Shown in pieces: positions 15,776-28,683 of a DNA stretch of 64,000 nt. The notes under the pieces are model-generated. The model was not told the DNA's origin. It made no database searches and saw only the letters and a list, made by a program, of their open reading frames with translations. The translations under genes and the position numbers were made by a program. Every line of letters begins with the position of its first letter. The stretch's first letter is position 1. Source of the DNA: Smithella sp. (lineage in GTDB: Bacteria; Desulfobacterota; Syntrophia; Syntrophales; Smithellaceae); NCBI GenBank assembly GCA_035524255.1, contig DATKPG010000012.1:95163-159162 (forward strand), in the 5' to 3' direction.

Positions 15776-16465
15776 TTATTTACTTTTTTCAAACTTTGAC
15801 TTATCCGCGCCGCATACAGGACACGTCCATGTTTGGGGCAAATCTTCAAATTTTGTTCCGGGGGCAATGCCGTTATCCGGATCGCCTTTGGCTTCGTCAT
15901 AAACATAGCCGCAAACACTGCAGACATAACTGGCGGAGGCATGGGAATCGGCGGAAGTTTCATCTTTCGCGTAAGTGGGCGCTGTTTTCGGCGATTTGCC
16001 TCCCTTGACATTTTGATAATAGGCGTATGTCATGGGTTCGGCATCGCTTATGAGATCGCAATCGACAATCTGGCCGACAAAGATAGTATGCGTGCCGCAA
16101 TCCAATTCTTTTTCCAGTTCAACTTCCAGATAGGAGACCGTATTTTCCAGGATTATGGGCACATTGGTGACGCCTGTTTTTATTTTTACATTTTGCAGTT
16201 TATTGACATTGTGTCCGCTTTTAAAGCCGAAAAGACCGATGAAAGTCATGGGGGTTGCCTCGGACAGGATAGAGACAACAAATTTGCGGCTGAGTTTTAT
16301 TAATTCATGAGTGTAATTTTCTTTATTGATGCTGATGGCCACTGTCGCCGGATTCGATGTGACTTGAAACAGGGCGTTGGCAATCTGACCGTTGAATTTA
16401 CCGTCCTGACCTGAAGTGACGATGTATAGACCGTAACTGATTTTGTGAATAGCTGCTCTGTTCAT
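15776..16465 (-). CDS. Flavin reductase domain fused to rubredoxin (high-molecular-weight rubredoxin type)
   Basis: The N-terminal flavin-reductase-like domain ([20 protein letters not shown]) is fused to a C-terminal rubredoxin, [12 protein letters not shown]...[13 protein letters not shown], which carries two CxxC pairs. Confidence 0.85.
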
Positions 16466-16768: not shown

Positions 16769-17359
16769 ATGAAATATCAGGAATTTATAAAGCGCGATCA
16801 TTTTAATTTCGAAGAAATTCTCGCTTTTGCTTACGGCAAACTGGTGACTGACCCTCCCGAACATTTTGAAGCGAGACTTCCCGCGCCTCCCTTTCTCATG
16901 ATTGATCGCATATTGCTGATTGAAAGCGACGGAAAGAAGGGGAAAATAATCGCCGAACAGGATATCCGGCTGGACGCGTGGTATTTCCAATGCCATTTTC
17001 AGGGCGATCCGGTGCAGCCCGGATGTCTTGGCGTGGACGGAATATGGCAGTTGCTTGGTTTTTTCTGTGTCTGGAATGGATCGCTGGGGACGGGCAGGGC
17101 ACTGGGGTGCGGCGAAGTTGCTTTCAACGGTCAGATTCGCCCGTTTAACAAATGTGTCCGTTTTGAAATTGATGTGCGGCGTTATTCGCGTTTGAAGGAA
17201 TCGGGCGCGAGCGTCGTAATCGGAGACGGACGCATTTATGTGGATGATGAATTAATTGCTACTGTCGGGCAGGCTCGCACAGGTGTTTTTAAGGAGATTG
17301 CTTACAGCGATTACCCGCTTCGTTCGAAACATTCTATCGGTGGCATCATGGAGCGGTGA
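16769..17359 (+). CDS. fabA: FabA-type 3-hydroxyacyl-ACP dehydratase/isomerase
   Basis: FabA active-site block FFQCHFQGDPVQPGCLGVDGIWQLLGFF. The ATG at 16769 is chosen; the upstream part of the ORF has no similarity. Confidence 0.85.
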   Translation: MKYQEFIKRDHFNFEEILAFAYGKLVTDPPEHFEARLPAPPFLMIDRILLIESDGKKGKIIAEQDIRLDAWYFQCHFQGDPVQPGCLGVDGIWQLLGFFCVWNGSLGTGRALGCGEVAFNGQIRPFNKCVRFEIDVRRYSRLKESGASVVIGDGRIYVDDELIATVGQARTGVFKEIAYSDYPLRSKHSIGGIMER

Positions 17360-17856
17360 GCTATCAGATCATTAAAACGGTTGACCGTGTTTCACAGGAT
17401 CCGTTAAAGAGTACTTGTCATATTTTATTTACAGGAAATAATTTGAATATTATAAAAAAATCAGCACTTTATTTTGCCCGGAAAGAATTCTGCAGGGCCG
17501 CGATAAATGATCACGCTGATCTGAGCATTTTTAAAAAGAAACTTACCGGCACCGTAATTACCGGTCTTATTATAATATTTATCAGTTACTTTCTTGGCAT
17601 ACCGGCCGCCTTTATAGTGGGGGTAATTGCCGCCTGGTTGCATAGCCCCGCGTTCGGGGTTATCGGAATTCCTTTGGCTTACGGTCTTTCCTGGTTGCTT
17701 TTGATGCTGGGTATTTATCTTGCCGGTCCTCAATACGGGAGGGCGCTTAGCCGCTTCGTCGTACGGGTTATACTGGAAAAAATTCTCGGCAATGAAGTTA
17801 TCAGGCCCGAATCAACGCGCGTGCAAGATTCAAAGCCGGGCACAACAAAAAAATAA
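17356..17856 (+). CDS. Membrane protein of unknown function (lipid locus)
   Basis: 166 aa. Its GTG start overlaps the fabA stop (GTGA). It has three to four hydrophobic helices (VITGLIIIFISYFLGIPAAFIVGVIAAWL...). No motif recognised. Confidence 0.5.
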   Translation: MSYQIIKTVDRVSQDPLKSTCHILFTGNNLNIIKKSALYFARKEFCRAAINDHADLSIFKKKLTGTVITGLIIIFISYFLGIPAAFIVGVIAAWLHSPAFGVIGIPLAYGLSWLLLMLGIYLAGPQYGRALSRFVVRVILEKILGNEVIRPESTRVQDSKPGTTKK

Positions 17857-17895
17857 AGAGAACTTGAAAAGTCAGATTAAGAACAGGAGTATTAG

Positions 17896-18165
17896 ATGAG
17901 TCAGATTGAAGAATTGATCAGTGAACTTAAGGTTAAAATTATTGAAACACTGGGACTGATTGACGTTGGGCCCGAAGATATCGGGGATGACGCTCAACTC
18001 GTAGGCGGCGATATGGGGATTGATTCCATTGATGTGCTTGAATTGGTGATGATGATTGAAAAAGACTACGGTGTCAGAATCGACAGCAAGGAGCTGGGCG
18101 TTAAAGTTTTTGCTTCTGTGCGCGCGCTGGCCACACACATTTCCGGGAATCAGAAAAAAGGTTAA
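17896..18165 (+). CDS. Acyl carrier protein (ACP-1 of the lipid locus)
   Basis: 89 aa with the phosphopantetheine attachment motif DMGIDSIDVLELVMMIE. Confidence 0.85.
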   Translation: MSQIEELISELKVKIIETLGLIDVGPEDIGDDAQLVGGDMGIDSIDVLELVMMIEKDYGVRIDSKELGVKVFASVRALATHISGNQKKG

Positions 18166-18211
18166 TGCATCGCTTTCGCTAAAATTTGATCTTTTTTAAG
18201 CTTTAATTTCT

Positions 18212-19564
18212 ATGATAAAAGTACTGCTCATTTCAGCGAATACTCTGAGAATTCCCTATCCGGTATATCCGCTGGGGCTTGATTACGTAGCCGGTTCCCT
18301 GGATTCCCGTTATCAGACCAAAATCGCGGACTTAAACGTTTTTGCCAATCCGGATGAGCTGGATACATTGATCAGAGAATTTTCTCCCGATTATGCCTGC
18401 GTATCCATCAGGAATATCGATAATACCGATGTAACAAACAGCAGAGGCTTTCTGTCTGAGTATCAAAGTTTAGTCGGCCGCATCAGGGCAAATTCGAATG
18501 CCCGGATCATTTTAGGCGGCTGCGGTTTTACGATCTTTCCTGTTGAGTTCATGCGGGCGCTGGATGCCGATTATGGAATAGCCGGCGAAGGCGAGAGATT
18601 ACCCGTGCTTCTGGACGCGCTCGCGAAAAACAGGGATGTCAAACAAATACCCGGTGTTTTGACAAAAGAAAAAACGGACTTTGTTTATGAACCCTGGGAT
18701 GGCGAAATTAAAAGACGTTTTGATCCGGCAAATCCCCACACGCAATTTTATCTGTCTTACGGCGGCATGCTCAATCTGCAAACAAAAAGAGGATGTCCGT
18801 TTCATTGCTCCTACTGCACTTATCCCCATATCGAAGGCGCCCGGATGCGGTTTTTCCCGCCGGTTGAAGTAGCCCGCGAGGCCCGCGAATTGCAGGATTC
18901 CGGCGCCAAGTATATTTTCATAACCGATTCCGCGCTCAACGCCAGTTATGAGCACAGCTCTCAGGTCGCGAAAGCCTTTATGCACGCCCGCGTGTCTATT
19001 CCGTGGGGCGGTTTTTTTGCGCCCACCATTCCTCCCGATGATTATTTCAAACAGATGGCGGATGCCGGATTAACGCATGTTGAATTCGGCACGGAATCTT
19101 TGTCGGATACGGTGCTTAAAAATTTGCGCAAACCTTTTTCTTCCGGTGATGTTTTGATTGCCCATGAAAAAGCGCTTAAAGCCTCTTTGCACGTTGCTCA
19201 TTATCTTCTGTTAGGCGGTCCGGGCGAAAACAAACAGACTCTGCAAAAAACACTGACCGGCCTCGATAGCCTTTCGCGGGCGGTATTCTTTTTTTTCTGC
19301 GGCATCCGCGTTTATCCGCACACGGGTTTGTATGATATAGCGCTTCGGGAAGGTCAGATTACCGCGGGCCAGAATATCCTGCCGCCGGTATTTTACCGTT
19401 CAGGGGAAATATCCGCCGCGGAAATTATGCAGACGGTGGAAAATCACGCCAACGGCCGTCTGAACTGGATTATCGGCGCCGGTGAAGCTAAGGCAACCCG
19501 TGTTTTGCCCAAACTCTACAGGAGAGGGTTTACAGGTCCCCTGTGGGAATATCTGATTCAATAA
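18212..19564 (+). CDS. B12-binding-domain radical SAM enzyme (class B type)
   Basis: The N-terminal B12-binding-like domain is MIKVLLISAN..YPLGLDYVAGSL. The radical SAM motif is KRGCPFHCSYCTY. 450 aa. Confidence 0.85.
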   Translation: MIKVLLISANTLRIPYPVYPLGLDYVAGSLDSRYQTKIADLNVFANPDELDTLIREFSPDYACVSIRNIDNTDVTNSRGFLSEYQSLVGRIRANSNARIILGGCGFTIFPVEFMRALDADYGIAGEGERLPVLLDALAKNRDVKQIPGVLTKEKTDFVYEPWDGEIKRRFDPANPHTQFYLSYGGMLNLQTKRGCPFHCSYCTYPHIEGARMRFFPPVEVAREARELQDSGAKYIFITDSALNASYEHSSQVAKAFMHARVSIPWGGFFAPTIPPDDYFKQMADAGLTHVEFGTESLSDTVLKNLRKPFSSGDVLIAHEKALKASLHVAHYLLLGGPGENKQTLQKTLTGLDSLSRAVFFFFCGIRVYPHTGLYDIALREGQITAGQNILPPVFYRSGEISAAEIMQTVENHANGRLNWIIGAGEAKATRVLPKLYRRGFTGPLWEYLIQ

Positions 19565-19709
19565 AGACGGATTGACACAATTCCAAAGTAATTTCCCCGC
19601 CCTTTTCCAGGAAAGGGATTGAGGGATGGTGAAACATCAGGATTTTTCTCTTGTGTCCAATGCCTGCGGAGTTGTCACATCATGACGGAGGTGGATGAGA
19701 CTATCCATG

Positions 19710-20498
19710 AAAAAAATATTAACGTCTGCAAGCCCCGCTCAAATCACGGGAATAATTCTTTTGTCTGCCGCCGCGGTTGTTTTCTTTATGAATTCTCTGC
19801 TTTCGGCGGCTATTGCCCTTTTATATATTGTGCTTTGTGTGGCCGCTTCTTTTTTCCCGCGAAGCAATTTTTTCCTGCCTGTGATCAGCCGCGGCAATAC
19901 CGGCGAAAATTTGGTCGCGCTGACTTTTGATGATGGTCCTTCACTTCCGACAACAGGACAAATAATGGCCCTGCTGGATCGGTATTCGGTGAAGGCAACT
20001 TTTTTTGTTTCCGGCGCCAATGCCTTGAAACATCCGGAAATAATCAGGGAAATAATTGCCCGCGGCCACGCCATTGGCAATCATTCATTTAATCATAATC
20101 CTTTTTTGATGCTGGGAAGTTATCATTATCTTTATCAGGAAATATTCAGGACTCAGGAAGTTTTGAAGAAAATGGGCGTCAATGCTTTGGCCTTTCGTCC
20201 CCCTGTGGGAATCATCAGCCCCAAACTTCCCGCCGTTCTGGATCGACTGGGTTTGTTTTGTGTAACTTTTAACTGCCGCGCTTTTGATGCGGGCAATCGC
20301 CGTGTTAAAAATCTTGCATCCAGAATACTCAAAAAGGTTAAGGCCGACGATATCATTTTGCTGCACGATGTGCCGCCGCGCCGTTTAGAAGACGGCGCTG
20401 TTTTATTGCCGGAAATCGAAAAGATATTGCAGGGGCTTGCGGTTAAGGGCTTAAAAATTGTTCCCCTTTCCAGTTTAATTCACCGGGATATTAATTAA
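19710..20498 (+). CDS. Membrane-anchored polysaccharide deacetylase (NodB homology) family protein
   Basis: Two N-terminal hydrophobic helices are followed by the NodB motifs TFDDGP and HSFNH. The ATG at 19710 (MKKILTS) is preferred. Confidence 0.8.
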   Translation, partial: KKILTSASPAQITGIILLSAAAVVFFMNSLLSAAIALLYIVLCVAASFFPRSNFFLPVISRGNTGENLVALTFDDGPSLPTTGQIMALLDRYSVKATFFVSGANALKHPEIIREIIARGHAIGNHSFNHNPFLMLGSYHYLYQEIFRTQEVLKKMGVNALAFRPPVGIISPKLPAVLDRLGLFCVTFNCRAFDAGNRRVKNLASRILKKVKADDIILLHDVPPRRLEDGAVLLPEIEKILQGLAVKGLKIVPLSSLIHRDIN

Positions 20499-20524
20499 GA
20501 ACCGCCGTTTTTGCCATGCTCAGC

Positions 20525-21385
20525 TTACTGGGACTTGAGTCCCGCCATCTTTTTTATCCATTCGGGGGCAACCTTACGGCCGGTGATTTTTTGGAACCCT
20601 ACCGGGAATAATCGCTTAAGCCAGTCATACACGTAGGCATCCGCTCCGACCATGATGCGCACTTTGTCCTTTTTGATTCCGGCAATAATAATTTTTGCCG
20701 CCTTGTCCGCTGATGTTTTTGCCATAACCTGATTGAAAACGGCAACGCTTCCTTCTCTTGCAAGGGAGGGGTCCGAGGCTTTGTAGTACTTGGCGTTGTT
20801 GGCAATGTTCGTCTTAATTCCGCCGGGGTGCACACACGAGACTTTAACGCGGGTATCAGAGAGTTCCTGCGCCAGCGTTTCAGTGAATCCCCGGACGGCA
20901 AACTTTGCCGTACAGTAAGGACCGTTATTCGGATTGGTGAAAATACCATTAACGCTGCTGATATTGACGATGTGAGCGGAGTCCTGCTTTTTAAGGTACG
21001 GGAGGAACTCCTTGCATCCATAAATCACGCCCCACAAATTGATACCCATGAGCCACTCAAAATCCTCATAGGTCACATCATCCAGCGTTTCCATGATGGC
21101 GACCCCCGCATTATTGATGATGATATGAACAGCGCCGTGAGTGTTAACCACCTCGTTTGCATAGCGCCTGACCTGCTCGCGGTCCGCGGCGTCTACCTTG
21201 TGGGTGCTGACCCGCACATCTTTGTTTCGCCTATGCACCATATCGGCGGTTTCCTTGAGACCGGCCTCGTTAAGATCTGATATTGCCATGTGGCAGCCTT
21301 CATCAGCCAGATTAAGCGCAAGCGCCCTTCCGATGCCGGATGCGGCGCCGGTAATTCCCGCGACCCTGTTTTTTAGATCCTTCAT
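20525..21385 (-). CDS. Short-chain dehydrogenase/reductase (candidate ketoreductase of the locus)
   Basis: Cofactor motif ITGAASGIGRALA, NNAG, and catalytic YCTAKFAV (YxxxK). It is convergent with the deacetylase gene, with 26 nt between the stops. Confidence 0.9.
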   Translation of the reverse strand: MKDLKNRVAGITGAASGIGRALALNLADEGCHMAISDLNEAGLKETADMVHRRNKDVRVSTHKVDAADREQVRRYANEVVNTHGAVHIIINNAGVAIMETLDDVTYEDFEWLMGINLWGVIYGCKEFLPYLKKQDSAHIVNISSVNGIFTNPNNGPYCTAKFAVRGFTETLAQELSDTRVKVSCVHPGGIKTNIANNAKYYKASDPSLAREGSVAVFNQVMAKTSADKAAKIIIAGIKKDKVRIMVGADAYVYDWLKRLFPVGFQKITGRKVAPEWIKKMAGLKSQ

Positions 21386-21827: not shown

Positions 21828-21878
21828 TTAGTACTTTTGCGTATTCATTTAACTTTGACATGAGCCAATGGGGTTTAT

Positions 21879-22256
21879 TTGTTGGAAAGTCAATGGAGTT
21901 TATTAAAAGAGATAAAAGTAACTAATGATCATTATATTGAAGCATTGGCGGATGTGCCGGCTGATTCTCCTTGGTTTTTGGGCCATTTCCCCGGCGAGCC
22001 GATTCTTCCCGGAATCGCTTTAGTTTATATCGTCGAACAGGCAATTATCCGGGACGCATTGAAAAAAGGGGAGCCGGTTCAATTAAAGGAGTTCAAAAGA
22101 GTAAGATTTACACAGCCGGTGCGGCCCCGGGAAACGCTGACGGTCAGCATAACCTGTGAGGAAAACGGTGAAGACGTTTTGTTTTCTTTTAAAGTGGCAA
22201 GTCAGGGAAATATTGTGTGCAGCGGTTTAATAAACGCGAAAAAGATAAATAGTTAA
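21879..22256 (+). CDS. FabZ-like hot-dog-fold dehydratase
   Basis: Motif WFLGHFPGEPILPGIALVYIVEQA (compare FabZ HFPxxPvmPG). TTG start; the exact start is uncertain. Confidence 0.75.
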   Translation: MLESQWSLLKEIKVTNDHYIEALADVPADSPWFLGHFPGEPILPGIALVYIVEQAIIRDALKKGEPVQLKEFKRVRFTQPVRPRETLTVSITCEENGEDVLFSFKVASQGNIVCSGLINAKKINS

Positions 22257-22286
22257 ATATAAATAAGCATAGAAGGAGGGGTTGTG

Positions 22287-22559
22287 ATGCCTGATAACCA
22301 GGATACCAAGGGCATTATACGGCGCGTGGCCGAAATAATTATTGAGGAACTCAAATTAGAAGACGTTACCGCGGACACATTTAATCCGGATATGGATTTG
22401 GTGGATGAATTGGGCATTGACAGCATGGATCTGGCGACCATTGCATTAGTCCTGCAGGATGAGTACAAGATCGCCATAGATGAAGATGATTATCCCAAGT
22501 TGAAAACCATTCGCCTGATCGCCGGTTACATTGAAGAAAAACTTGCCGAGAAAAAATAA
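22287..22559 (+). CDS. Acyl carrier protein (ACP-2 of the lipid locus)
   Basis: Motif ELGIDSMDLATIALVLQDEY. A GAAGGAGGGG Shine-Dalgarno sequence lies 7 nt upstream of the ATG at 22287. Confidence 0.85.
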   Translation: MPDNQDTKGIIRRVAEIIIEELKLEDVTADTFNPDMDLVDELGIDSMDLATIALVLQDEYKIAIDEDDYPKLKTIRLIAGYIEEKLAEKK

Positions 22560-23660
22560 TTGATTGAAGATAAAAGGTCTATGCCTATTCGTGATAAAGC
22601 AGCTCTGCAATCAGTCAAACCCGGATTTTCCGAACTCCTGTCTCATCCGGAGGTCAAAGCGCGCTGGGAAAAGGTGAGAAAATATTTTTTTCTGCGGGAA
22701 TCGACTTATGATATGTCCAACCGCTGCAATATTCGCTGTGACGGCTGTTATTACTTTGAAGGAGAAAAACAGTTCGCCCGTGAGATTGGCGATACCCTTG
22801 CGTGGCGCGAGCTTATGCAGGCCGAAAAAGCGCGCGGCATTACTTACGTCGTTCTGGCGGGAGCAGAGCCTTCTTTGGTGCCGGAGCTTCTGGATGTGTG
22901 CTATCAGGAAATGCCGCTGGGCAGCATTGCCACCAATGGTTTCAAAAAAATATCTTCTTCAGTCGGCTATAAACTGCATATTTCCGTCTGGGGTAATGAC
23001 GAAACCAGTTTAAGAATCAGAAAGGCCAAGGACCTTTTAAAAAAACAGATCGAGAATTACGAAAATGATCCGCGGGCGGTTTTTGTTTACACCTTTACCC
23101 GGGAAAATATAGATGAGGTAAAAGAAGTCGCCGCGCAGCTTGTCGCCCATGACTGTAAACTGACCTTTAATGTTTTTTCATCGCCGGTTGGTTACACGGG
23201 AAATCTGCGGCATGATGACGCGTCGTTCAACGATACACGGCAGATGATGATGGAGCTTCTGAATAAATATCCGCGAAATATTATTTTTTCCGCCTACAAC
23301 GCCGTGGCGCATACCCATCAAAAAAGTTTGCATGATCTTTACAGTTGTTCCTATCCCCGTCAGAATGCTTCGCGGGATATCGGGTTGGGGAGGTCTTTCC
23401 GGCAATACAGGACAGACCTTAATTGGGACAGATCGGTCGCCTGCTGTGTGCCGGATACGGATTGCGACGACTGCCGTCATTACGCCGCCGGTTCCTCAAT
23501 CGTCACGGCGCGCCTGTACCGTCATGTGAACGATCTGGCTACTTTTAAATCCTGGCTCGATTATGTTGATACCTATCTGGCTGTCTGGGTCATGGGATAC
23601 GAGAAGGGCGAGAATCTTTGCGCCGAAATTATAAATCCGCCGCGGGCGGCGACAAGTTAG
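22560..23660 (+). CDS. Radical SAM enzyme, paralog A (no B12 domain)
   Basis: Motifs CNIRCDGCYY, AGAEPSL and ATNG, plus a C-terminal Cys cluster ACCVPDTDCDDCRHY. The start is either TTG 22560, which abuts the ACP stop, or ATG 22581. Confidence 0.8.
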   Translation: MIEDKRSMPIRDKAALQSVKPGFSELLSHPEVKARWEKVRKYFFLRESTYDMSNRCNIRCDGCYYFEGEKQFAREIGDTLAWRELMQAEKARGITYVVLAGAEPSLVPELLDVCYQEMPLGSIATNGFKKISSSVGYKLHISVWGNDETSLRIRKAKDLLKKQIENYENDPRAVFVYTFTRENIDEVKEVAAQLVAHDCKLTFNVFSSPVGYTGNLRHDDASFNDTRQMMMELLNKYPRNIIFSAYNAVAHTHQKSLHDLYSCSYPRQNASRDIGLGRSFRQYRTDLNWDRSVACCVPDTDCDDCRHYAAGSSIVTARLYRHVNDLATFKSWLDYVDTYLAVWVMGYEKGENLCAEIINPPRAATS

Positions 23661-23729
23661 AAACGATATTAAAATATTCACCAGATGGGTTGGAATACCT
23701 GATTTTAAAATTCTGTCGGAGCAGTATTG

Positions 23730-24728
23730 ATGAAAACGGTTAGTTCTTTGCTGGATAAAAACTGGTACGAAAGATACAGGCAAATTTCAAATCTTAATAT
23801 CCGCAGTTCCATATACGATGTAACCAACCGCTGCAATTTGCGCTGCAAAGGCTGTTTTTTCTTTTCTTCGGGAGAACATCAGGCGGCCGAAGAAGAGATG
23901 GATATAAAAAAATGGGAAGATTTTATCGACCGTGAAAAAGAACGGGGCGTGAATCTGGCGATTTTAATAGGCGGCGAGCCGACGCTTTGCATGGATCGCG
24001 TCGAGGCTTTCTATAAGCGCCTGCCTACTTATTGCGCCACCAACGGTCTGATTAAAGTTCCCCGGGAAAAGTTTCCCGATATGATGGTGGGAATTTCGCT
24101 ATGGGGCGGCGGCGAAGAAGAGAAAGTCCTCCGCGGGCGCGACACGTTTGCCGTATCCAGTAAGAATTATGCCGGAGATGCTTATACGTATTATCTTTAT
24201 ACGTTGACTCCCCGCCAGGTGGGGAAGATGGAACCTGTCATCAAAAGAATTGCCGATGTCGGCTTGAAAGTGCATCTGCAGCTTTTATCGAATGACGAAG
24301 GCGTTGACGGCTTTTCGTGGCGCGAAGGCGAACTCAAAGATTTACGTCATGAAATGGACGAGATGCTGGATCAATATCCGCAGACTGTAATTTCCTGCAA
24401 ATATTATCATGAGATCATTACCACGGGGAAAATGATGGGACGGAGCTTTGGGTGGAATGAATGCCCCTCCGTTACGGAATCTCTGGATAATAGAGAAAAC
24501 CGGCCCCGCCGTTTAATCCATTTTGCCCGCTGGGCCTCAGATTTAAAAACGGTTCATCGCTGCTGCACGTCGGCAACGCGCGATTGCTCTACCTGTAAAG
24601 ACGGAGCGGCGCATATGAGCTGGGTCATGGTCAACAAACGCGAACATCTGAAATCGGCCAAAGATTTACAAAACTGGATCGAAGTCTATGAAATGTTTGC
24701 CAAGTTGTACCACTTTATTCCTTGGTAA
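23730..24728 (+). CDS. Radical SAM enzyme, paralog B
   Basis: Motifs CNLRCKGCFF, GGEPTL and ATNG, plus a C-terminal cluster RCCTSATRDCSTCKDGAAH. It aligns with paralog A along its whole length. Confidence 0.8.
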   Translation: MKTVSSLLDKNWYERYRQISNLNIRSSIYDVTNRCNLRCKGCFFFSSGEHQAAEEEMDIKKWEDFIDREKERGVNLAILIGGEPTLCMDRVEAFYKRLPTYCATNGLIKVPREKFPDMMVGISLWGGGEEEKVLRGRDTFAVSSKNYAGDAYTYYLYTLTPRQVGKMEPVIKRIADVGLKVHLQLLSNDEGVDGFSWREGELKDLRHEMDEMLDQYPQTVISCKYYHEIITTGKMMGRSFGWNECPSVTESLDNRENRPRRLIHFARWASDLKTVHRCCTSATRDCSTCKDGAAHMSWVMVNKREHLKSAKDLQNWIEVYEMFAKLYHFIPW

Positions 24729-24828: not shown

Positions 24829-26079
24829 ATGGGTTTAAAGAAAACATTAATACTGGGCTACGACGCTGTGTCTTCTTTGGGAACGGATTTGGATGTCCAA
24901 TGGCAGCGGGCTGTGGCCGGAAATTGCGGAATAGGAAATCTTACCAGATTTCCTATTGACGCCGCCTTCCCTGTGCGTGTTGCCGGTGAAGTGGCGGATA
25001 TTGATACGCGTCCGTATCCTTTTTTACAGCCGAGGGATCTGGCGCACTGGACATCGCCCATCTTCAAATACGGCATGCTGGTTGTTCACCGCGCTCTGGA
25101 AAAAAGCAAAATTATCATTACGCCTGAAATAGCGCCGCGGGTCGCGATTACCTTCAGTTCGGCGGTTGGCGGTTTGGACGCGGTTCTGCAGGCTGATCGT
25201 CTGATGATTACGGAAGGGAAAATGCCTCATCCTTTTACGAACCCCAACTCCTGCATTAATATGGCCGGCGGCAAGGTTTCCATTCTTACGGGCGCGACAG
25301 GTCCTATCTGCTCGACGATCACGGCTTGCGCTACAGGAATTACATCGCTGATCATAGGCCGAATGCTGCTTGAGCAAAACATGGCGGATGTGGTTATCGG
25401 CGGCGCGGTGGATTTTCCTCTGGTTGAGCCGATCGTTGCCGGATTTGCCACAATGAACGGCGCTTACCGTCCGAAAGAAGGACAGCCCCACGAGCCGCCG
25501 GAAAAAACGAGCAGGCCTTTTTCTGTTCACAGGCGGGGGTTTGTTGTCTCCGAAGGAGCCGGTTGCGTCATTATGGCAACGGAAGATTTTGCCAAATCCC
25601 ATGGGTTGGAATCAAAAATAGAACTGGCCGGATGCGCCATGACATCGGATGCCAGCCATTTTGTTTCGCCTAATTTGACAACGGTGCAAAGATGCATCGA
25701 AGAAACTATTGCCGACGCGGGACTTCGGCCGGCGGATATTGACGCGGTCAACGCGCACGCGACTTCGACCAAAATAGGCGATAAGGTGGAGGCGGATGCC
25801 CTGCGTAATGTTTTCGGCGATAAAGTGCCGCCGGTATCGGCGAACAAATCACAACTCGGTCACGCGATGGGCGCCTCCAGCGCCATCGAAGCCATACTGG
25901 CTATGGAAGGCATGCTTAAAGAGAGCGTGCTGCCCACGATTAATTATGTTCCAGACCCCGAAATTGAAATTGACTGTGTTGGCGAAGGAGCCAGAAAATT
26001 AAAACAGGAGTTTGTGCTGAAAAACGCGTTTGGTTTCGGCGGATGCAATTCCTGCCTGATTTTGCGCAGACTTGAATAG
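24829..26079 (+). CDS. Beta-ketoacyl-ACP synthase (FabF/FabB-like), KS-1
   Basis: Active-site Cys in STITACATG, the two His in VNAHATSTKIGD and NKSQLGHAMGASS, and a C-terminal NAFGFGGCN. Confidence 0.9.
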   Translation: MGLKKTLILGYDAVSSLGTDLDVQWQRAVAGNCGIGNLTRFPIDAAFPVRVAGEVADIDTRPYPFLQPRDLAHWTSPIFKYGMLVVHRALEKSKIIITPEIAPRVAITFSSAVGGLDAVLQADRLMITEGKMPHPFTNPNSCINMAGGKVSILTGATGPICSTITACATGITSLIIGRMLLEQNMADVVIGGAVDFPLVEPIVAGFATMNGAYRPKEGQPHEPPEKTSRPFSVHRRGFVVSEGAGCVIMATEDFAKSHGLESKIELAGCAMTSDASHFVSPNLTTVQRCIEETIADAGLRPADIDAVNAHATSTKIGDKVEADALRNVFGDKVPPVSANKSQLGHAMGASSAIEAILAMEGMLKESVLPTINYVPDPEIEIDCVGEGARKLKQEFVLKNAFGFGGCNSCLILRRLE

Positions 26080-26096: not shown

Positions 26097-27362
26097 ATGA
26101 AAGCCCCGAAAAACAGAAAAGTTTTTATCGTCGGTTACGGCGCGGCCACCCCGCTGGGGAGCACATTTGAAAAAACATGGAAAAGAGCGATTAAGGGTGA
26201 GGCCGGTTTCCGCAAAGTGACCCGATGTAATGTAGAATCAGCCTGCGATATCGTCGGAGAGATACCGGACTGGTACCCACTGGAGCTTGATTTTACCGAC
26301 GCGAAAGAAGTGTACAACTGGAACGCGGCTTTTGTGATTTTAACGATGGCCGTTTGCAAGGAGGCCCTGCAAAATTCGGGCATTTCCATTGACGCCCAGA
26401 TTGCTCCGCGGATGGCATGCCTTGTCGGTTCGGCGCTCAACGGGTCGGATGCTTTTCGCATTGCCGTTCACGATCTGGAACATCGCGGGCCGCTGAGGGT
26501 CAGTCCTTATTTGTTGCCTAATCTGTGCGCGAATCTTCCTTCCGGCAAAGCGGGAATGCTTTTGAAATTTACCGGCCCTATTTTTTCGCCGCAGGGCGCC
26601 TGCGCTTCGGGAAACTACGCGATAGGCATCGGAGCAAGAATGATCAGGGATGGTGATTGCGATTTTGTCCTGGCCGGCGGCGCTGACGCTCCCATTCTGC
26701 CGGAACTGATTCACGGTTTTGCCAATATGAATGCCACGATCAAGGTTAATCCCAAAGACCGCGCTTATCAAAATCCCGCGCTGGCTTCGAGGCCTTTCAG
26801 CGCTGACCGCAAGGGTTTTGTCCTTTCCGAAGGCGCGGGCGTTGTTGTTCTGGCCGCGGAAGAGGCGATCAAAGCTTACGGGCTTAAACCGAAGGCCGAA
26901 GTTTTGGGCATCGGATGGGCATCGGATGCCCATCATTACACCAGTCCCAACATGTCAACGATTATCCGCGCTATCAGAGAATCCATTGAGGATGCCGGAT
27001 TGAAACCGGAAGATGTTCAATATGTGAACGCCCATGGCACGTCCACGCCCAAAGGCGACAGCACGGAGATAAAATGTCTGCGGGAAGTGTTTTGCAAAAA
27101 GCTTGAAAAAATTCCCGTATCATCAAACAAATCTCAGTTGGGGCATACCCTCGGCGCGACCGCGGCCATCGAAGCCGCTCTGACGATTGAAGGAATGAAC
27201 AAGGGCATAATCCTGCCCACGATCAACCATGTGCCGGATCCCGAATTTGCCGATATCGATGTAGTGCCTGATGATGCCCGCAAACAAAAATATGAAATTG
27301 CTCTTTCCAATGCTTTTGGTTTTGGCGGAACAAATTGCTGTGTCATTTTCAGAGGAGTATAA
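26097..27362 (+). CDS. Beta-ketoacyl-ACP synthase (FabF/FabB-like), KS-2
   Basis: Active-site Cys in PQGACASGNYAIG, the two His in VNAHGTSTPKGD and NKSQLGHTLGATA, and a C-terminal NAFGFGGTN. Confidence 0.9.
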   Translation: MKAPKNRKVFIVGYGAATPLGSTFEKTWKRAIKGEAGFRKVTRCNVESACDIVGEIPDWYPLELDFTDAKEVYNWNAAFVILTMAVCKEALQNSGISIDAQIAPRMACLVGSALNGSDAFRIAVHDLEHRGPLRVSPYLLPNLCANLPSGKAGMLLKFTGPIFSPQGACASGNYAIGIGARMIRDGDCDFVLAGGADAPILPELIHGFANMNATIKVNPKDRAYQNPALASRPFSADRKGFVLSEGAGVVVLAAEEAIKAYGLKPKAEVLGIGWASDAHHYTSPNMSTIIRAIRESIEDAGLKPEDVQYVNAHGTSTPKGDSTEIKCLREVFCKKLEKIPVSSNKSQLGHTLGATAAIEAALTIEGMNKGIILPTINHVPDPEFADIDVVPDDARKQKYEIALSNAFGFGGTNCCVIFRGV

Positions 27363-27364
27363 AA

Positions 27365-27844
27365 ATGAAACCCAAGCCATTTAAACCGGAAATGTACAAT
27401 AATGACGAGCGTTACACGCGGGACCTGACAACTGGTCTTGTCTGGCATCGTTCGCGATACCGGACATTATATGTTGATACGGATCGCTCGCAAGTGGTTT
27501 ATCATTCCAATTATCTGCGTTATTTCGAATTCGGCCGAACTTCCCTGATGCGCGATATCGCTTATTCCTACAAAGAAATCGAGGAAAGCGGATATGTATA
27601 TCCCATCTTCGATTTAGGCATCAGTTTTTATCAACCCCTGTATTACGACGATTTGATGTATATCTACACGCGGCCGGTAAACCTGGAGAGAGTGCGTTTA
27701 CAATTTGACTACCTGATAACGCACGCGGAAAAAGGACATATCATCTGTATCGGCTTCACAAAGCATTGCGCTTTGAATCTGGCCGGAACTCCCGTGGCCA
27801 TCGATCCGAAAACGGTTCAATTATGGAAATCGTTTCCCGTTTAA
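27365..27844 (+). CDS. 4HBT/YbgC-type acyl thioesterase
   Basis: Motif YVDTDRSQVVYHSNYLRYFEFGRTSLMR. The ATG at 27365 lies 7 nt after AGAGGAG and 2 nt after the KS-2 stop. Confidence 0.8.
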   Translation: MKPKPFKPEMYNNDERYTRDLTTGLVWHRSRYRTLYVDTDRSQVVYHSNYLRYFEFGRTSLMRDIAYSYKEIEESGYVYPIFDLGISFYQPLYYDDLMYIYTRPVNLERVRLQFDYLITHAEKGHIICIGFTKHCALNLAGTPVAIDPKTVQLWKSFPV

Positions 27845-28683
27845 ATCAAACCAAGCGGCATCACTGTGATATCGAGGTGTATCCCTATCTGCGGGATCAC
27901 CATTTAGAGGGAGGGGTCATTCTGCCGGCCGTGGAAGAGATGATTGTTCTGGCAGGCGCCGTTAAAACCCATTATCCGCAGATCGATATAAATTGTATGC
28001 AAGGCGCGACCTTTCCGCGTTTTTTATCAATTCCGCCGGATACAACGCGCCTGCCGGTAATGATTGATATGAAAGAATCCGGTGACGGCGGGATCAGGGC
28101 TTCGCTTATCACTACGGTTACATCAAAAACCGGCGATATCAGGCGCACCGTCGAACACGCGAGTGTGGAGTTTCTCTTTGCTGATAACGCTGCGTCATTG
28201 CCGCCTCCTTTTCCCATCATGAAGAATCTGGAAGGAGGTTGCATCAGCGTGCCCTCGGAGGCTATTTACCGTGAACTTGTTCCTTTTGGAGAGGCTTATC
28301 AAAACATCATGGGTGATTTATCGGTTTTGCCTGACGGAGCCCATGCTTTTGTTTCCGGAGGTGATCATGAGGCGGATGAAAGTTTGCTCGGTTCTCCGTT
28401 TCCACTGGATGCGACCCTGCACGCGGCCTGCGTATGGGGGCAGCGCTTTGCCGGTATGGTTTCCTTCCCTGTTGGATTTGGAAAAAGAGTCATTTATCAA
28501 AAGACGATAAAAGGAAATAAGTATCTGGGACGCGTTGTGCCTGCGGGCGTCTCCGGGGAATTGTTGATCTTTAACGCCTGGATTTATGATTTGAATGATG
28601 TAATCTGTGAAAGCATCAGCGGTATGGAGATGAGAGATGTGTCGCGGGGACGATTAAGTCCGCCTGAGTGGATCAGAGCTTAA
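27823..28683 (+). CDS. PKS-type (double hot-dog) dehydratase-like protein
   Basis: HHLEGGVILP matches the PKS dehydratase HxxxGxxxxP motif exactly. About 286 aa. The ATG at 27823 overlaps the thioesterase 3' end by 22 nt. Confidence 0.6.
   Translation: MEIVSRLNQTKRHHCDIEVYPYLRDHHLEGGVILPAVEEMIVLAGAVKTHYPQIDINCMQGATFPRFLSIPPDTTRLPVMIDMKESGDGGIRASLITTVTSKTGDIRRTVEHASVEFLFADNAASLPPPFPIMKNLEGGCISVPSEAIYRELVPFGEAYQNIMGDLSVLPDGAHAFVSGGDHEADESLLGSPFPLDATLHAACVWGQRFAGMVSFPVGFGKRVIYQKTIKGNKYLGRVVPAGVSGELLIFNAWIYDLNDVICESISGMEMRDVSRGRLSPPEWIRA

What the first reader, a model, noticed from the sequence alone, without database searches (positions are those of the whole stretch)
16769..19564. FabA, unknown membrane protein, ACP and B12-radical SAM sub-operon
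A FabA-type enzyme introduces and isomerises a double bond on acyl-ACP. Here it is tightly coupled (GTGA overlap) to an uncharacterised membrane protein. A dedicated ACP and a class-B (B12-binding domain) radical SAM enzyme follow.

Class-B rSAMs typically methylate unactivated or sp2 carbons. A FabA-made cis-3 or trans-2 enoyl-ACP would be a plausible substrate. No FabB partner is present in this sub-operon.

I recall an NCBI family name, lipid biosynthesis B12-binding/radical SAM protein, for enzymes in such contexts. I cannot verify membership here.
Basis: partly seen in the sequence, partly recalled or inferred. Interest (0 to 1): 0.55.

Follow-up and report, generated by a model that had tools for sequence, protein, structure and literature searches.

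The report
Radical-SAM lipid gene island beside FabA
The four genes are real, but the B12-radical SAM enzyme belongs to a larger, already catalogued "ladderane-type" lipid gene island of unknown product that carries its own glycerol-phosphate acyltransferase, while FabA and the small membrane protein are merely neighbours in this bacterial family.

Summary
All four ORFs exist. FabA, the ACP and the B12-binding/radical SAM protein are confirmed by HMMs.

The genome is Smithella-like, not anammox: no hydrazine synthase was found at 98.8% completeness.

The "sub-operon" is two juxtaposed modules.
- **FabA plus membrane protein.** This pair persists in a same-genus genome that lacks the radical SAM genes. 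FabA lies next to the enzyme only in this one family, and elsewhere sits in a different fatty-acid operon.
- **ACP1 plus B12-rSAM.** These open an ~11.5-kb island: deacetylase, ApeI-like dehydratase, ACP2, two SPASM/twitch rSAMs, two active ketosynthases, thioesterase, dehydratase, PlsY. The island is syntenic in loci titled Smithella/Smithellaceae/Syntrophaceae, Spirochaetes/Spirochaetota/Leptospirales, Desulfobacterales/Desulfobacteraceae, Gammaproteobacteria and Syntrophus.

PlsY in this class travels with the island, and no PlsX was found.

The GTGA overlap is probably not the real start. The conserved start is TTG 17443.

The closest solved relative is the methylase TsrM.

Verdict: a new member of a known, uncharacterised cluster type. 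Methylation of a FabA product is untested and not favoured.

The parts
15776..16465 (-). Flavin reductase-rubredoxin fusion, divergently transcribed. It is a neighbour of the FabA module, not of the rSAM island.
   Evidence: PF01613 119.8 bits plus PF00301 87.5 bits. It lies upstream in the Smithellaceae-type loci. It is still next to FabA in L133 (G015), which lacks the island.
16769..17359 (+). FabA-type 3-hydroxyacyl-ACP dehydratase/isomerase (196 aa), the genome's only FabA-class gene.
   Evidence: NF003509 199.3 bits against 124. H76 and D90 are invariant in 17 sequences. PF07977 gives three matches in the genome and only this one is FabA-like, at 136 bits. FabA is single-copy (one match each in 173 of the 174) in 174 of 201 class genomes.
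17443..17856 (+). Small membrane protein 'Mem' (137 aa). It has an N-terminal amphipathic segment with an invariant Cys, two hydrophobic hairpin regions and a conserved C-terminal helix (RWxVRVILEKILG). The ORF is open back to GTG 17356.
   Evidence: No Pfam or NCBIfam family. 289 relatives, mostly 137 aa. The conserved start codon is present in 53 of 53 loci. The Atlas holds the 137-aa form letter for letter.
17896..18165 (+). ACP1, the dedicated acyl carrier protein and first gene of the conserved island.
   Evidence: PF00550 42 bits; NF006617 65.7 bits, below its cut-off of 70. It is upstream of the B12-rSAM in 59 of 64 loci.
18212..19564 (+). Cobalamin-binding radical SAM enzyme, family TIGR04072.
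   Evidence: 379.8 bits against a cut-off of 360. C195, C199 and C202 (CX3CX2C) are invariant in 30 sequences. AF2 pLDDT 93.6. The best fold match is TsrM, TMq 0.86-0.88. The profile scores 244.9 bits against TsrM.
19695..20498 (+). Polysaccharide-deacetylase (NodB-fold) protein with a hydrophobic N-terminus.
   Evidence: PF01522 97 bits. It lies directly downstream in 57 of 57 close loci and 4 of 17 distant loci.
20525..21385 (-). SDR oxidoreductase on the opposite strand; a variable insert, not core.
   Evidence: PF00106 177.9 bits. It appears at this place in only 4 of the 80 loci: L039, L041, L042 and L047.
21879..22256 (+). Small FabZ/ApeI-like hotdog dehydratase.
   Evidence: PF07977 39.5 bits; ApeI-like 26.8 bits, below its cut-off of 28.5. 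It is downstream of the B12-rSAM in 63 of 66 loci. The L113 homologue scores 30.9 bits on ApeI-like, over the cut-off.
22284..22559 (+). ACP2, a second dedicated carrier protein.
   Evidence: PF00550 42.4 bits. Present in 61 of 64 loci.
22560..23660 (+). Radical SAM enzyme 2, SPASM/twitch-like, with CX3CX2C and a C-terminal Cys cluster.
   Evidence: PF04055 22.4 bits, below its cut-off. The motifs were read. It is 27% identical to rSAM3. Present in 55 of 58 loci.
23727..24728 (+). Radical SAM enzyme 3, paralogue of rSAM2 and the most conserved island protein. Its likely start is ATG 23730.
   Evidence: PF04055 31.6 bits. It is 75-96% identical across the 80 loci of several phyla. Present in 50 of 54 loci. 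The profile hits SkfB, a chain labelled only 'Radical SAM' (5v1q) and GDGT-MAS. The fold is a generic SPASM/twitch rSAM.
24829..26079 (+). Ketosynthase 1 (FabF-like) with an intact Cys-His-His triad.
   Evidence: TIGR03150 317.5 bits, below its cut-off. The alignment to a chain labelled 3-oxoacyl-ACP synthase 2 (4ls5; organism not given by the tool) shows TAC / AH / GH conserved. Present in 44 of 48 loci.
26097..27362 (+). Ketosynthase 2 (FabF-like) with an intact Cys-His-His triad; 43% identical to KS1.
   Evidence: TIGR03150 378.6 bits, below its cut-off. Present in 39 of 45 loci.
27335..27844 (+). 4HBT (YbgC/FadM-type) thioesterase; the exact start is uncertain.
   Evidence: TIGR00051 73.5 bits against 68.7. 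Present in 36 of 42 loci.
27766..28683 (+). PKS-type double-hotdog dehydratase-like protein; the exact start is uncertain.
   Evidence: PF14765 24.6 bits against 23.7. Present in 35 of 42 loci.
28759..29349 (+). PlsY-family acyltransferase, the last gene of the island and the only PlsY in the genome.
   Evidence: PF02660 121 bits; TIGR00023 104 bits, below its cut-off of 137. It is the only over-cut-off match in the genome. It is absent from same-genus genomes that lack the island.

Best explanation

**Module 1** is FabA plus a Smithellaceae-type 137-aa membrane protein, next to a divergent flavin reductase-rubredoxin. FabA is the lineage's single-copy FabA. Its function is inferred to be ordinary anaerobic dehydration/isomerisation of acyl-ACP.

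**Module 2** starts at ACP1 and runs about 11.5 kb to PlsY (17896-29349). It is an accessory lipid island of the TIGR04072 / 'ladderane-type' kind known from non-anammox anaerobes.

Proposed working, all steps inferred:
1. The two active FabF-like ketosynthases and two hotdog dehydratases build a short or medium, at least transiently unsaturated, acyl chain on the island's own carrier proteins.
2. Three radical SAM enzymes tailor the chain while it is carrier-bound. The cobalamin enzyme acts on the ACP1-bound chain, most likely as a class-B C-methyltransferase (SAM to methyl-cobalamin to carbon, with 5'-dA radical H-abstraction). The two SPASM/twitch enzymes make a C-H-activated modification such as a C-C cross-link or ring.
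3. The 4HBT thioesterase releases the acid.
4. After activation, the island's own PlsY puts it on glycerol-3-phosphate, giving a special membrane glycerolipid.

Shown here: gene identities, island boundaries and synteny, separability of FabA/Mem, the PlsY linkage and the TsrM-like fold.

My odds: about 0.85 for the two-module architecture and family assignment; about 0.6 for a glycerolipid end-product via PlsY; about 0.4 for methylation as the B12 enzyme's chemistry.
For: - **Family.** TIGR04072 scores 379.8 bits against a cut-off of 360. Sources name close homologues 'lipid biosynthesis B12-binding/radical SAM protein [Smithella sp.]'.
- **Synteny.** Among 80 named loci, counting only loci with enough flank: ACP1 59/64, FabZ-like 63/66, ACP2 61/64, rSAM2 55/58, rSAM3 50/54, KS1 44/48, KS2 39/45, TE 36/42, DH 35/42, PlsY 29/42. 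The loci include records titled Spirochaetes/Spirochaetota/Leptospirales, Desulfobacterales/Desulfobacteraceae, one Gammaproteobacteria MAG and Syntrophus.
- **Separability of FabA.** FabA is upstream in 39/52 close loci and 0/14 distant loci. By my reading of the place tables, FabA is within 3.5 kb of the enzyme in 42 of 48 genomes of the own family and in 0 of 37 genomes of other families. Elsewhere FabA sits in an acyltransferase / acyl-CoA-dehydrogenase-like / KAS III / FabA (/ KR / FabZ / KS) operon.
- **Natural deletion.** G015 (98% complete, 9 contigs) keeps DUF3443, DUF2844, the flavin reductase, FabA and Mem with no ACP1 or rSAM.
- **PlsY linkage.** G015 and G005 lack TIGR04072, rSAM3 and any PlsY, while G002 and G056 have all three within about 10 kb. 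By my hand tally over 201 genomes: both genes 98, rSAM only 8, PlsY only 10, neither 85.
- **Fold.** The best structural matches are the cobalamin methylases TsrM (TMq 0.86-0.88) and MgmA, with CysS and TokK further down the list; AprD4 and OxsB also rank among the top matches. The family-invariant R67 aligns with TsrM R69.
- **Fusions among 50%-identity representatives.** A lipid-A-type acyltransferase fused to the B12-rSAM, an rSAM/SPASM fused to the B12-rSAM, and the B12-rSAM fused to a hotdog domain.
Against: - No product or activity is known for any member of the family. By the passages and abstracts I saw, expression of the anammox genes in E. coli gave no new fatty acids and the anammox radical SAM enzymes could not be obtained.
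- AprD4 and OxsB, which do not methylate, also rank among the top fold matches. The fold therefore does not fix the chemistry.
- PlsY normally needs acyl-phosphate from PlsX, and no PlsX was found in 5 of 5 genomes searched. The last step thus needs an unidentified activating enzyme. A FakA-DegV fusion exists, but in another cluster on contig C16.
- The PlsY score is below NCBIfam's equivalog cut-off (104 bits against 137).
- Two Smithella loci (L046, L056) and one Desulfococcaceae locus (L111) show the B12 enzyme without the downstream genes within 10 kb.
- Mem-like genes (34-43% identical) lie at the far end of four loci: three of the 18 loci whose rSAM is under 60% identical (L105, L113, L115) plus L097, whose rSAM is 78% identical but which lacks FabA and Mem upstream. 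Mem may therefore have some link to the island after all.
- Genomes of one class are kin, so the 2x2 counts overstate independence.
Confidence: 0.6

Rival explanations
1. FabA, the membrane protein, ACP1 and the B12-rSAM form a dedicated four-gene unit. FabA makes a trans-2 or cis-3 enoyl-ACP1, and the class-B enzyme methylates it.
For: - The genes are adjacent on the same strand with short spacers: 83, 39 and 46 nt.
- This order holds in 39 of 52 close loci and in 42 of 48 own-family genomes (my reading).
- The nearest solved relative, TsrM, methylates an sp2 carbon (the chemistry is recalled).
- One representative fuses a B12-rSAM to a hotdog domain.
Against: - FabA is upstream in 0 of 14 distant loci and adjacent in 0 of 37 genomes of other families.
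- At least 12 genomes have the enzyme and no FabA, and at least 68 have FabA without it.
- FabA-Mem persists without ACP1 or the rSAM in G015.
- FabA is the only FabA in the genome, so it is likely needed for bulk unsaturated fatty acids.
- The hotdog domain of the fused protein shows no BLASTP similarity to the window's dehydratase.
- The GTGA coupling is probably not the real start.
Confidence: 0.12
2. The B12-rSAM does not methylate. It performs a radical rearrangement or C-C ring closure on the carrier-bound chain, as postulated for cyclobutane formation in anammox and as known for BchE, OxsB, HpnJ and the Grs enzymes. The island then makes a cyclised acyl lipid.
For: - The family was named for the anammox candidates. 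Passages of the reviews I read list Kuste2803 as a candidate cyclobutane-forming enzyme and place it with HpnJ and BchE in a similarity network.
- OxsB and AprD4 rank among the top fold matches.
- Two further SPASM/twitch rSAMs, a type that often makes cross-links, are always co-encoded.
Against: - The best fold and profile matches are methylases: TsrM at 244.9 bits and MgmA, with CysS and TokK further down the list.
- BchE and HpnJ models score only 35.9 and 67 bits.
- No cyclic lipid is on record for these taxa in the papers I searched.
Confidence: 0.22
3. The island is an aryl-polyene/flexirubin-like pigment or outer-membrane lipid pathway, not a phospholipid pathway. PlsY and the deacetylase would be incidental neighbours.
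For: - ApeI-like and ApeP-like dehydratases, a LolA-like gene, a ketoreductase and a KS-CLF-type fusion flank the same core in the Desulfobacterales-type locus L113.
- A lipid-A-type acyltransferase is fused to a B12-rSAM in one representative.
- The own genome has an APE-like cluster with an aromatic lyase and another B12-rSAM on C16.
Against: - The window's island has no aromatic-starter enzyme, no CLF (both ketosynthases keep Cys-His-His), no LolA or MMPL gene and no glycosyltransferase.
- PlsY co-occurs with the enzyme in 98 of 106 genomes and is nearly absent otherwise, in 10 of 95.
- PlsY lies 8-14 kb from the enzyme on the same contig in most families where both places are listed (my reading of the place tables; exceptions G094, G033, G147).
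Confidence: 0.1
4. This non-anammox bacterium makes true ladderane lipids.
For: Only the TIGR04072 membership and the general gene content.
Against: - No hydrazine synthase in a 98.8%-complete genome.
- There is no ketosynthase with a mutated triad and no phytoene-desaturase-like gene in the island. Both are features of the anammox Cluster I as described in the preprint passages.
- According to its abstract, Rattray 2009 found no ladderanes in Desulfotalea, which has similar clusters.
Confidence: 0.02

Closest known systems
NCBIfam TIGR04072 (rSAM_ladder_B12), 'lipid biosynthesis B12-binding/radical SAM protein'
   Same: The score is over the curated cut-off. The match is full-length (1-443 of 443), with a B12-binding domain, a radical SAM domain, the CX3CX2C motif and a lipid gene context.
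   Different: The score is only 20 bits above the cut-off. No member has a demonstrated reaction. I had no anammox sequence to compare directly.
Kuenenia stuttgartiensis cluster kuste3335-3352 and the syntenic Desulfotalea psychrophila cluster (Rattray 2009, PMC2649909; gene table in Javidpour 2016, PMC4790861; passages read)
   Same: By the papers' gene lists, that cluster has FabZ, ACP, FabG, two radical SAM enzymes, several FabF genes, and an ACP next to a polysaccharide-deacetylase-like protein. This is the same cast and partly the same order as FabZ-like, ACP2, rSAM2, rSAM3, KS1, KS2 and ACP1...deacetylase here.
   Different: - That cluster also lists phytoene desaturases, SAM methylases, a glycosyltransferase and a phenylacetyl-CoA ligase, none of which is in the window's island.
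- The B12 enzyme Kuste2803 lies in another Kuenenia cluster.
- No PlsY is listed there.
- The likeness rests on annotations in the papers, not on a sequence comparison made here.
Anammox 'Cluster I' KustE3603-3608 (amxACP, amxFabZ, amxFabF2/amxFabFmut, PDH-like, rSAM; Dietl 2023 PMC10139942; Granatino 2026 preprint; passages read)
   Same: Dedicated ACP, FabZ-like dehydratase, a pair of FabF paralogues and a radical SAM enzyme.
   Different: - Both ketosynthases here keep the Cys-His-His triad, whereas amxFabFmut has lost it.
- There is no desaturase-like gene.
- The FabZ-like protein matches ordinary FabZ structures (43.8 bits) better than entries 7qv0 and 8ay* (about 30-32 bits), which I take, unverified, to be amxFabZ.
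TsrM (tryptophan 2-C-methyltransferase), the closest solved structure
   Same: Same two-domain fold (TMq 0.86-0.88) and a profile match of 244.9 bits over both domains. The invariant Arg aligns with TsrM R69.
   Different: - About 20% identity, and TsrM has an extra C-terminal domain.
- The position aligned with TsrM E273 is Ala here and hydrophobic in the family consensus. That E273 blocks radical SAM cleavage in TsrM is recalled, not tested.
- The substrate here is presumably an acyl-ACP, not free tryptophan.
Aryl-polyene (APE) type II PKS-like clusters
   Same: ApeI-like small dehydratase, paired ketosynthases, two ACPs and a 4HBT thioesterase. Desulfobacterales versions add ApeP-like, LolA-like and KR genes.
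   Different: There is no aromatic starter enzyme, CLF, exporter or glycosyltransferase in the window. Three radical SAM enzymes and PlsY are present, which, as far as I recall, APE clusters lack.

Membership tests
TIGR04072 lipid biosynthesis B12-binding/radical SAM protein | Whole-protein HMM score at or above the curated cut-off (360 bits) | tested here: met
   379.8 bits, E 1.5e-113, model positions 1-443 of 443. The genome search gave 379.4 bits.
TIGR04072 lipid biosynthesis B12-binding/radical SAM protein | N-terminal B12-binding domain plus radical SAM core with CX3CX2C | tested here: met
   PF02310 47.7 bits and PF04055 73.2 bits. C195, C199 and C202 are invariant in 30 sequences.
TIGR04072 lipid biosynthesis B12-binding/radical SAM protein | Encoded among fatty-acid-synthesis-like genes | tested here: met
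   ACP, ketosynthases, dehydratases, thioesterase and PlsY are in conserved synteny.
Class-B (cobalamin-dependent) radical SAM methyltransferases | Cobalamin-binding Rossmann domain and a fold like solved class-B methylases | tested here: met
   AF2 model pLDDT 93.6. Fold matches include the methylases TsrM, MgmA, CysS and TokK, with AprD4 and OxsB ranked among them.
Class-B (cobalamin-dependent) radical SAM methyltransferases | Methyl transfer from SAM via methyl-cobalamin to the substrate | not testable with these tools
   This needs an enzyme assay. Non-methylating relatives (AprD4, OxsB) also match the fold.
FabA (3-hydroxydecanoyl-ACP dehydratase/isomerase) | HMM score over the equivalog cut-off | tested here: inconclusive
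   NF003509 is met at 199.3 bits against 124. TIGR01749 is not met at 164.3 bits against 238.15.
FabA (3-hydroxydecanoyl-ACP dehydratase/isomerase) | Catalytic His and Asp of the hotdog active site | tested here: met
   H76 and D90 are invariant in 17 sequences, within the motif CHFxGDPVQPGCL...D. Equivalence to E. coli His70/Asp84 is recalled.
FabA (3-hydroxydecanoyl-ACP dehydratase/isomerase) | FabB partner ketosynthase | tested here: not met
   None of the five extra ketosynthase genes scanned reaches the FabB model's cut-off. The best is 322.6 bits against 630, for the housekeeping FabF on C1.
Anammox ladderane Cluster I (KustE3603-3608 type) | FabF paralogue with a lost Cys-His-His triad (CLF-like) | tested here: not met
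   KS1 and KS2 both align with Cys, His and His of FabF structures. The feature is taken from preprint passages.
Anammox ladderane Cluster I (KustE3603-3608 type) | Phytoene-desaturase-like gene in the cluster | tested here: not met
   None lies between 16.7 and 29.4 kb. A CrtD-like gene lies elsewhere, on contig C17.
Anammox ladderane Cluster I (KustE3603-3608 type) | Host is an anammox bacterium (hydrazine synthase) | tested here: not met
   PF18582 has no match in the 98.8%-complete genome. Relatives are named Smithella.
Kuenenia kuste3335-3352 / Desulfotalea-type lipid cluster | Orthology of the two radical SAM enzymes (Kuste3342/3343, DP1853/DP1855) and of the deacetylase-like protein (Kuste3351) | not testable with these tools
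The likeness rests on gene lists in the papers.
PlsY (glycerol-3-phosphate acyltransferase) | Family HMM | tested here: inconclusive
   PF02660 scores 121 bits against 24.1 and is met. TIGR00023 scores 104 bits against 137.2 and is not met.
PlsY (glycerol-3-phosphate acyltransferase) | PlsX partner supplying acyl-phosphate | tested here: not met
   PF02504 was found in 0 of 5 genomes, the own genome included.
Aryl-polyene (APE) clusters | ApeI-type dehydratase, KS/CLF pair, aromatic starter, export genes | tested here: not met
   ApeI-like scores 26.8 bits, below 28.5, in the window. Both ketosynthases are active-type. There is no lyase, LolA or MMPL gene in the island.

The most novel reading that the evidence does not exclude
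The island is a self-contained, horizontally mobile 'lipid cassette'. It brings its own carrier proteins, chain-building enzymes, three radical SAM tailoring enzymes and its own PlsY into anaerobes that otherwise have neither PlsX nor PlsY. It would make a so far undescribed class of radical-SAM-tailored (methyl-branched and/or carbocyclic) acyl-glycerophospholipids.

The island is present or absent among species of one genus. Its B12 enzyme is the nearest non-anammox relative of the ladderane candidates. It would therefore give a tractable entry to the chemistry of the whole TIGR04072 family, ladderane biosynthesis included.
Probability: 0.3. Interest if true: 0.7.

Novelty: new member of a known kind. 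Interest (0 to 1): 0.42.

Why it matters
By the review passages I read, radical SAM tailoring of fatty-acyl rather than isoprenoid lipids is proposed for only two cases: ladderanes and the Jaw5 product. The ladderane pathway is still unsolved, partly because anammox bacteria have no genetics and their enzymes express poorly.

This window adds no new kind of system. It does sharpen the target in four ways:
- It defines the conserved core: ACP1, B12-rSAM, dehydratase, ACP2, two rSAMs, two active ketosynthases, TE, DH and PlsY.
- It removes FabA from that core.
- It ties the pathway to glycerolipid assembly through a dedicated PlsY.
- It points to natural with/without pairs inside one genus for comparative lipidomics.

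If the product were identified, it would assign a reaction to a family that has 643 representatives (one per cluster at 50% identity) at E<=1e-30. It might also explain orphan branched or cyclic lipid biomarkers of anoxic sediments and digesters.

Tried and rejected
- **FabA-Mem complex prediction**. The verdict was 'no answer', so nothing follows for or against binding.
- **RNA evidence for co-transcription**. No RNA holder was listed, so no reads were laid.
- **Promoter and terminator scan of 16.3-22.4 kb**. It found 17 promoter-like sites against 11.4 +/- 3.4 expected and 10 terminator-like sites against 8.1 +/- 3.1. This is near chance and was not used.
- **Rfam scan of the window**. There is no cobalamin riboswitch, only a TPP riboswitch at 38659-38778.
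- **Atlas search for Mem**. It returned only unnamed clusters of Thermodesulfobacteriota.
- **Fused proteins against the window's genes**.
  - The hotdog domain of the fused protein P0267 has no BLASTP similarity to the window's FabZ-like protein.
  - The SPASM half of P0254 resembles rSAM2/3 only around the radical SAM motif (E about 1e-5).
  - The fusions therefore support a lipid/hotdog link only in a general way.
- **Flavin reductase-rubredoxin as a dedicated reductase of the rSAM island.** I considered and dropped this, because the gene stays with FabA in the island-free genome G015.
- **Second TIGR04072-like gene on C43 as a pseudogene.** I considered and dropped this too. The three stops lie outside a 501-aa intact ORF that scores 275.9 bits.
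- **Fold search for rSAM3**. The model pLDDT is 77.9 and the matches are generic SPASM/twitch enzymes at TM about 0.5. This gives no specific function.
- **Direct sequence comparison with Kuenenia or Desulfotalea proteins.** This could not be done. The one genome-contig scan returned only the 80 best loci, none from Planctomycetota.

Full report
**Observation**

The interval 16769-19564 holds four + strand ORFs.
- FabA (16769-17359) matches PF07977 at 134.9 bits. It passes the NCBIfam equivalog NF003509 (199.3 bits against 124) but not TIGR01749 (164.3 against 238). Its catalytic His and Asp positions are invariant in 17 relatives.
- The ACP (17896-18165) matches PF00550.
- The 450-aa protein has a B12-binding domain and a radical SAM domain. 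It scores 379.8 bits on TIGR04072, 'lipid biosynthesis B12-binding/radical SAM protein' (cut-off 360). The next family, BzaD, scores 150 bits.
- The second ORF has no Pfam or NCBIfam family.

The GTG that overlaps the FabA stop is in the sequence, but conservation begins at TTG 17443, behind an AGGA. Most of the 289 relatives are 137 aa. The equivalent codon is a start codon in 53 of 53 related loci with a Mem match covering at least 80% of the query. I read an 83-nt spacer, not translational coupling.

**Organism**

The window is contig C12 of a 3.28-Mb, 98.8%-complete genome. Close homologues of the enzyme are named Smithella or Syntrophaceae. No hydrazine synthase alpha domain was found, so this is not an anammox bacterium.

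**What the enzyme is conserved with**

I aligned 30 diverse family members and fetched 80 named loci with up to 10 kb on each side. I then mapped 18 window proteins onto them by tblastn. The counts below use only loci with enough flank.

| Gene | Loci with the gene / loci examined |
|---|---|
| ACP1 upstream | 59 / 64 |
| FabZ/ApeI-like dehydratase | 63 / 66 |
| ACP2 | 61 / 64 |
| rSAM2 | 55 / 58 |
| rSAM3 | 50 / 54 |
| KS1 | 44 / 48 |
| KS2 | 39 / 45 |
| Thioesterase | 36 / 42 |
| Double-hotdog dehydratase | 35 / 42 |
| PlsY | 29 / 42 |

- The 18 loci whose enzyme is under 60% identical come from records titled Spirochaetes, Spirochaetota or Leptospirales; Desulfobacterales, Desulfobacteraceae or Desulfococcaceae; Thermodesulfobacteriota; Deltaproteobacteria or 'delta proteobacterium'; one Gammaproteobacteria MAG; and Syntrophus. 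Most of them (9 of 10 to 14 of 15, by gene) keep the downstream core.
- Exceptions are L046, L056 and L111, where the enzyme has no downstream core within 10 kb, and L104, which has a large insert.
- rSAM3 is 75-96% identical across all of these loci.
- The deacetylase is constant in close loci (57 of 57) and occasional in distant ones (4 of 17). The opposite-strand SDR is seen at that place in only 4 of 80 loci.

**FabA and the membrane protein are a separate module**

- FabA lies upstream in 39 of 52 close loci and 0 of 14 distant loci. Mem lies upstream in 53 of 55 close loci and 0 of 16 distant loci.
- In 201 genomes of the class, TIGR04072 is over its cut-off in 106. FabA is found in 174, one copy each in 173 of them.
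- At least 68 genomes therefore have FabA without the enzyme. By the family tallies and lists, at least 12 have the enzyme without FabA.
- Comparing the place tables by hand, FabA lies within 3.5 kb of the enzyme in 42 of 48 genomes of the own family and in 0 of 37 genomes of other families.
- In three genomes of two other families, FabA sits behind a malonyl-transferase-like gene, an acyl-CoA-dehydrogenase-like gene and a KAS III gene in two of them, and behind KAS III in the third; downstream, FabZ-like and KS genes were scanned in one (L132), a KS in a second (L130), and in the third (L131) only tblastn likeness to the window's SDR, FabZ-like and KS genes points to them (L130-L132).
- The own genome has the matching KR-FabZ-KS piece on contig C39.
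- Most telling is G015: same genus, 98% complete, 9 contigs. It has no TIGR04072 match and no rSAM3. It still keeps DUF3443, DUF2844 and the flavin reductase-rubredoxin, with FabA and Mem divergent from them. A metallo-beta-lactamase-fold gene stands where ACP1 would be.

One caveat remains. Mem-like genes (34-43% identical, E 6e-13 to 9e-24) lie at the far end of four loci: L105, L113 and L115, whose rSAM is under 60% identical, and L097, whose rSAM is 78% identical but which lacks FabA and Mem upstream. The own genome also has a paralogue beside trmJ on C2. The Mem family may therefore be loosely linked to such islands.

**PlsY belongs to the island**

- The island's PlsY is the only over-cut-off PF02660 match in the genome.
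- In the same genus, G015 and G005 (both 98% complete) lack the enzyme, rSAM3 and any PlsY. G002 and G056 have all three within about 10 kb. G162 (92% complete, 270 contigs) has rSAM3 and PlsY but no enzyme match, which may be an assembly gap.
- Across the 201 genomes, PF02660 is found in 108. My hand tally against one search gives: both genes 98, enzyme only 8, PlsY only 10, neither 85.
- In most families where both places are listed, PlsY lies 8-14 kb from the enzyme on the same contig (my reading of the place tables; G094 at about 22 kb, G033 at about 32 kb and G147, far apart, are exceptions).
- These genomes are kin, so the table is descriptive and not a test.
- No PlsX (PF02504) was found in 5 of 5 genomes searched. 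The island PlsY is also below NCBIfam's equivalog cut-off. How its acyl donor is made is unexplained. The conserved 4HBT thioesterase plus a fatty-acid-kinase-like FakA-DegV fusion on C16 is one possible route.

**The enzymes**

- Both ketosynthases align with the Cys, His and His of FabF structures. They are not a KS/CLF pair of the anammox type described in the 2026 preprint (passages).
- rSAM2 and rSAM3 are paralogues (27% identical) with CX3CX2C and a C-terminal Cys cluster. Their profile hits SkfB, a chain labelled only 'Radical SAM' (5v1q) and the lipid tail-coupling enzyme GDGT-MAS weakly. The fold is a generic SPASM/twitch rSAM.
- The B12 enzyme folds with pLDDT 93.6.
- Its best structural matches are TsrM (TMq 0.86-0.88), MgmA, AprD4, CysS, OxsB and TokK. 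The family profile scores 244.9 bits against TsrM.
- The family-invariant R67 aligns with TsrM R69. The residue aligned with TsrM E273 is Ala here. From memory, R69 sits under the cobalt and E273 blocks SAM cleavage in TsrM. If so, this family binds cobalamin like TsrM but can still make the 5'-dA radical.

Among representatives at 50% identity, there are 643 at E<=1e-30. I scanned 9 of the 150 listed representatives, picked as longer than the ~450-aa unfused form (492-2331 aa). Three of them fuse the enzyme to another kind of lipid- or radical-SAM-related domain: a lipid-A-type acyltransferase, an rSAM/SPASM enzyme, or a hotdog domain; a fourth (P0365, 2331 aa) strings together several radical SAM and B12-binding domains with a SPASM domain. 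The fused partners are not detectably the window's own genes.

**Comparison with what is known**

- Rattray et al. 2009 (abstract and passages) described FAS II clusters with radical SAM enzymes in Kuenenia. They reported striking synteny with Desulfotalea psychrophila, Geobacter and Pelobacter, and found polyunsaturated hydrocarbons but no ladderanes in Desulfotalea.
- The gene table in Javidpour 2016 (passages) lists FabZ, ACP, FabG, two radical SAM enzymes, FabF genes and an ACP next to a deacetylase-like protein. This resembles the island here in cast and partly in order. I could not test orthology.
- antiSMASH-based surveys report 'ladderane' clusters in Desulfobacterota and other non-anammox phyla, with unknown function (passages).
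- My searches for TIGR04072, its names and the Kuenenia locus tags found only these papers and one review. None assigns a reaction.
- The Desulfobacterales-type locus L113 adds ApeP-like, LolA-like, KR and a KS-CLF-type fusion between ACP1 and the enzyme. The wider family therefore shades into aryl-polyene-like systems. The own genome carries such a cluster on C16.

**Verdict**

The finding is real but ordinary in kind. It is a new member of the known, uncharacterised TIGR04072 / 'ladderane-type' lipid cluster family in a Smithella-like bacterium.

The most likely working is carrier-bound chain building, tailoring by three radical SAM enzymes (with the B12 enzyme probably a C-methylase on ACP1-bound acyl) and delivery to glycerol-3-phosphate by the island's own PlsY.

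The useful new points are the defined core, the PlsY linkage without PlsX, and the presence/absence pairs within one genus.

Noticed in passing
window 28759-29349, and genomes G000, G002, G005, G015, G056: No PlsX (PF02504) was found in 5 of 5 genomes. G005 and G015 also lack PlsY. By my tally, 85 of 201 class genomes have neither PlsY nor the island. How these bacteria acylate glycerol-3-phosphate is unexplained.
   Followed up: partly
L125 = G000:C16:16000-35900: This is a second specialised lipid cluster that looks aryl-polyene-like. It holds two ketosynthases, a B12-binding protein, an aromatic amino-acid lyase, a 4HBT thioesterase, a FakA(Dak2)-DegV fusion, a GT2 glycosyltransferase, an MMPL-methyltransferase fusion, a lipid-A-type acyltransferase and another B12-rSAM. 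A phage-type integrase lies beside it.
   Followed up: partly
L126 = G000:C17:32000-36500: A CrtD/phytoene-desaturase-like gene is followed by an ACP, a ketosynthase (PRK09116-like, 398 bits, below its cut-off) and a PlsC-type acyltransferase. This recalls the desaturase-containing clusters described for Kuenenia and Desulfotalea.
   Followed up: no
L128 = G000:C43:1752-3257: An intact 501-aa paralogue of the B12-rSAM scores 275.9 bits on TIGR04072, below the cut-off, and lies next to an SDR. A whole sub-cut-off paralogue class (about 280-310 bits) recurs across the class.
   Followed up: partly
L046, L056, L111: Two Smithella loci keep the B12-rSAM plus the deacetylase but have no downstream core within 10 kb. 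One Desulfococcaceae locus has the enzyme alone.
   Followed up: no
window 23727-24728 and loci L039-L118: rSAM3 is unusually conserved: 75-81% identical (tblastn) between Smithella and the loci whose rSAM is under 60% identical. In the same loci the B12 enzyme is only 52-57% identical. This suggests strong constraint or recent transfer.
   Followed up: no
P0365 (2331 aa), P0252, P0254, P0267: One representative is a giant protein with five radical SAM stretches and four B12-binding stretches. Others fuse the B12-rSAM to a lipid-A-type acyltransferase, to a SPASM rSAM or to a hotdog domain.
   Followed up: partly
window 9624-13117 (- strand): An acyl-CoA-dehydrogenase-like gene lacking the C-terminal domain match lies with MadC-like VWA (177.9 bits) and MadB-like AAA ATPase (332.3 bits) genes, both below their cut-offs. 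DUF3443 and DUF2844 genes follow.
   Followed up: no
window 38659-38778 (+): A TPP riboswitch (56.3 bits against 54.3) lies ahead of hydroxyethylthiazole kinase and thiamine-phosphate synthase genes.
   Followed up: no
window 48393-56278 and 59471-63555: A near-complete shikimate/chorismate operon runs on the + strand: DAHP synthase, DHQ synthase, chorismate mutase-prephenate dehydratase, DHQase-shikimate dehydrogenase, EPSP synthase, shikimate kinase and chorismate synthase. mnmE, jag and yidC lie at the window's end, a set that often sits near the replication origin (the origin remark is recalled).
   Followed up: no
L127 = G000:C2, 3457-3807 (-): A 116-aa paralogue of the small membrane protein (40% identical) lies next to a TrmJ-type RNA methyltransferase, outside any lipid context.
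   Followed up: no
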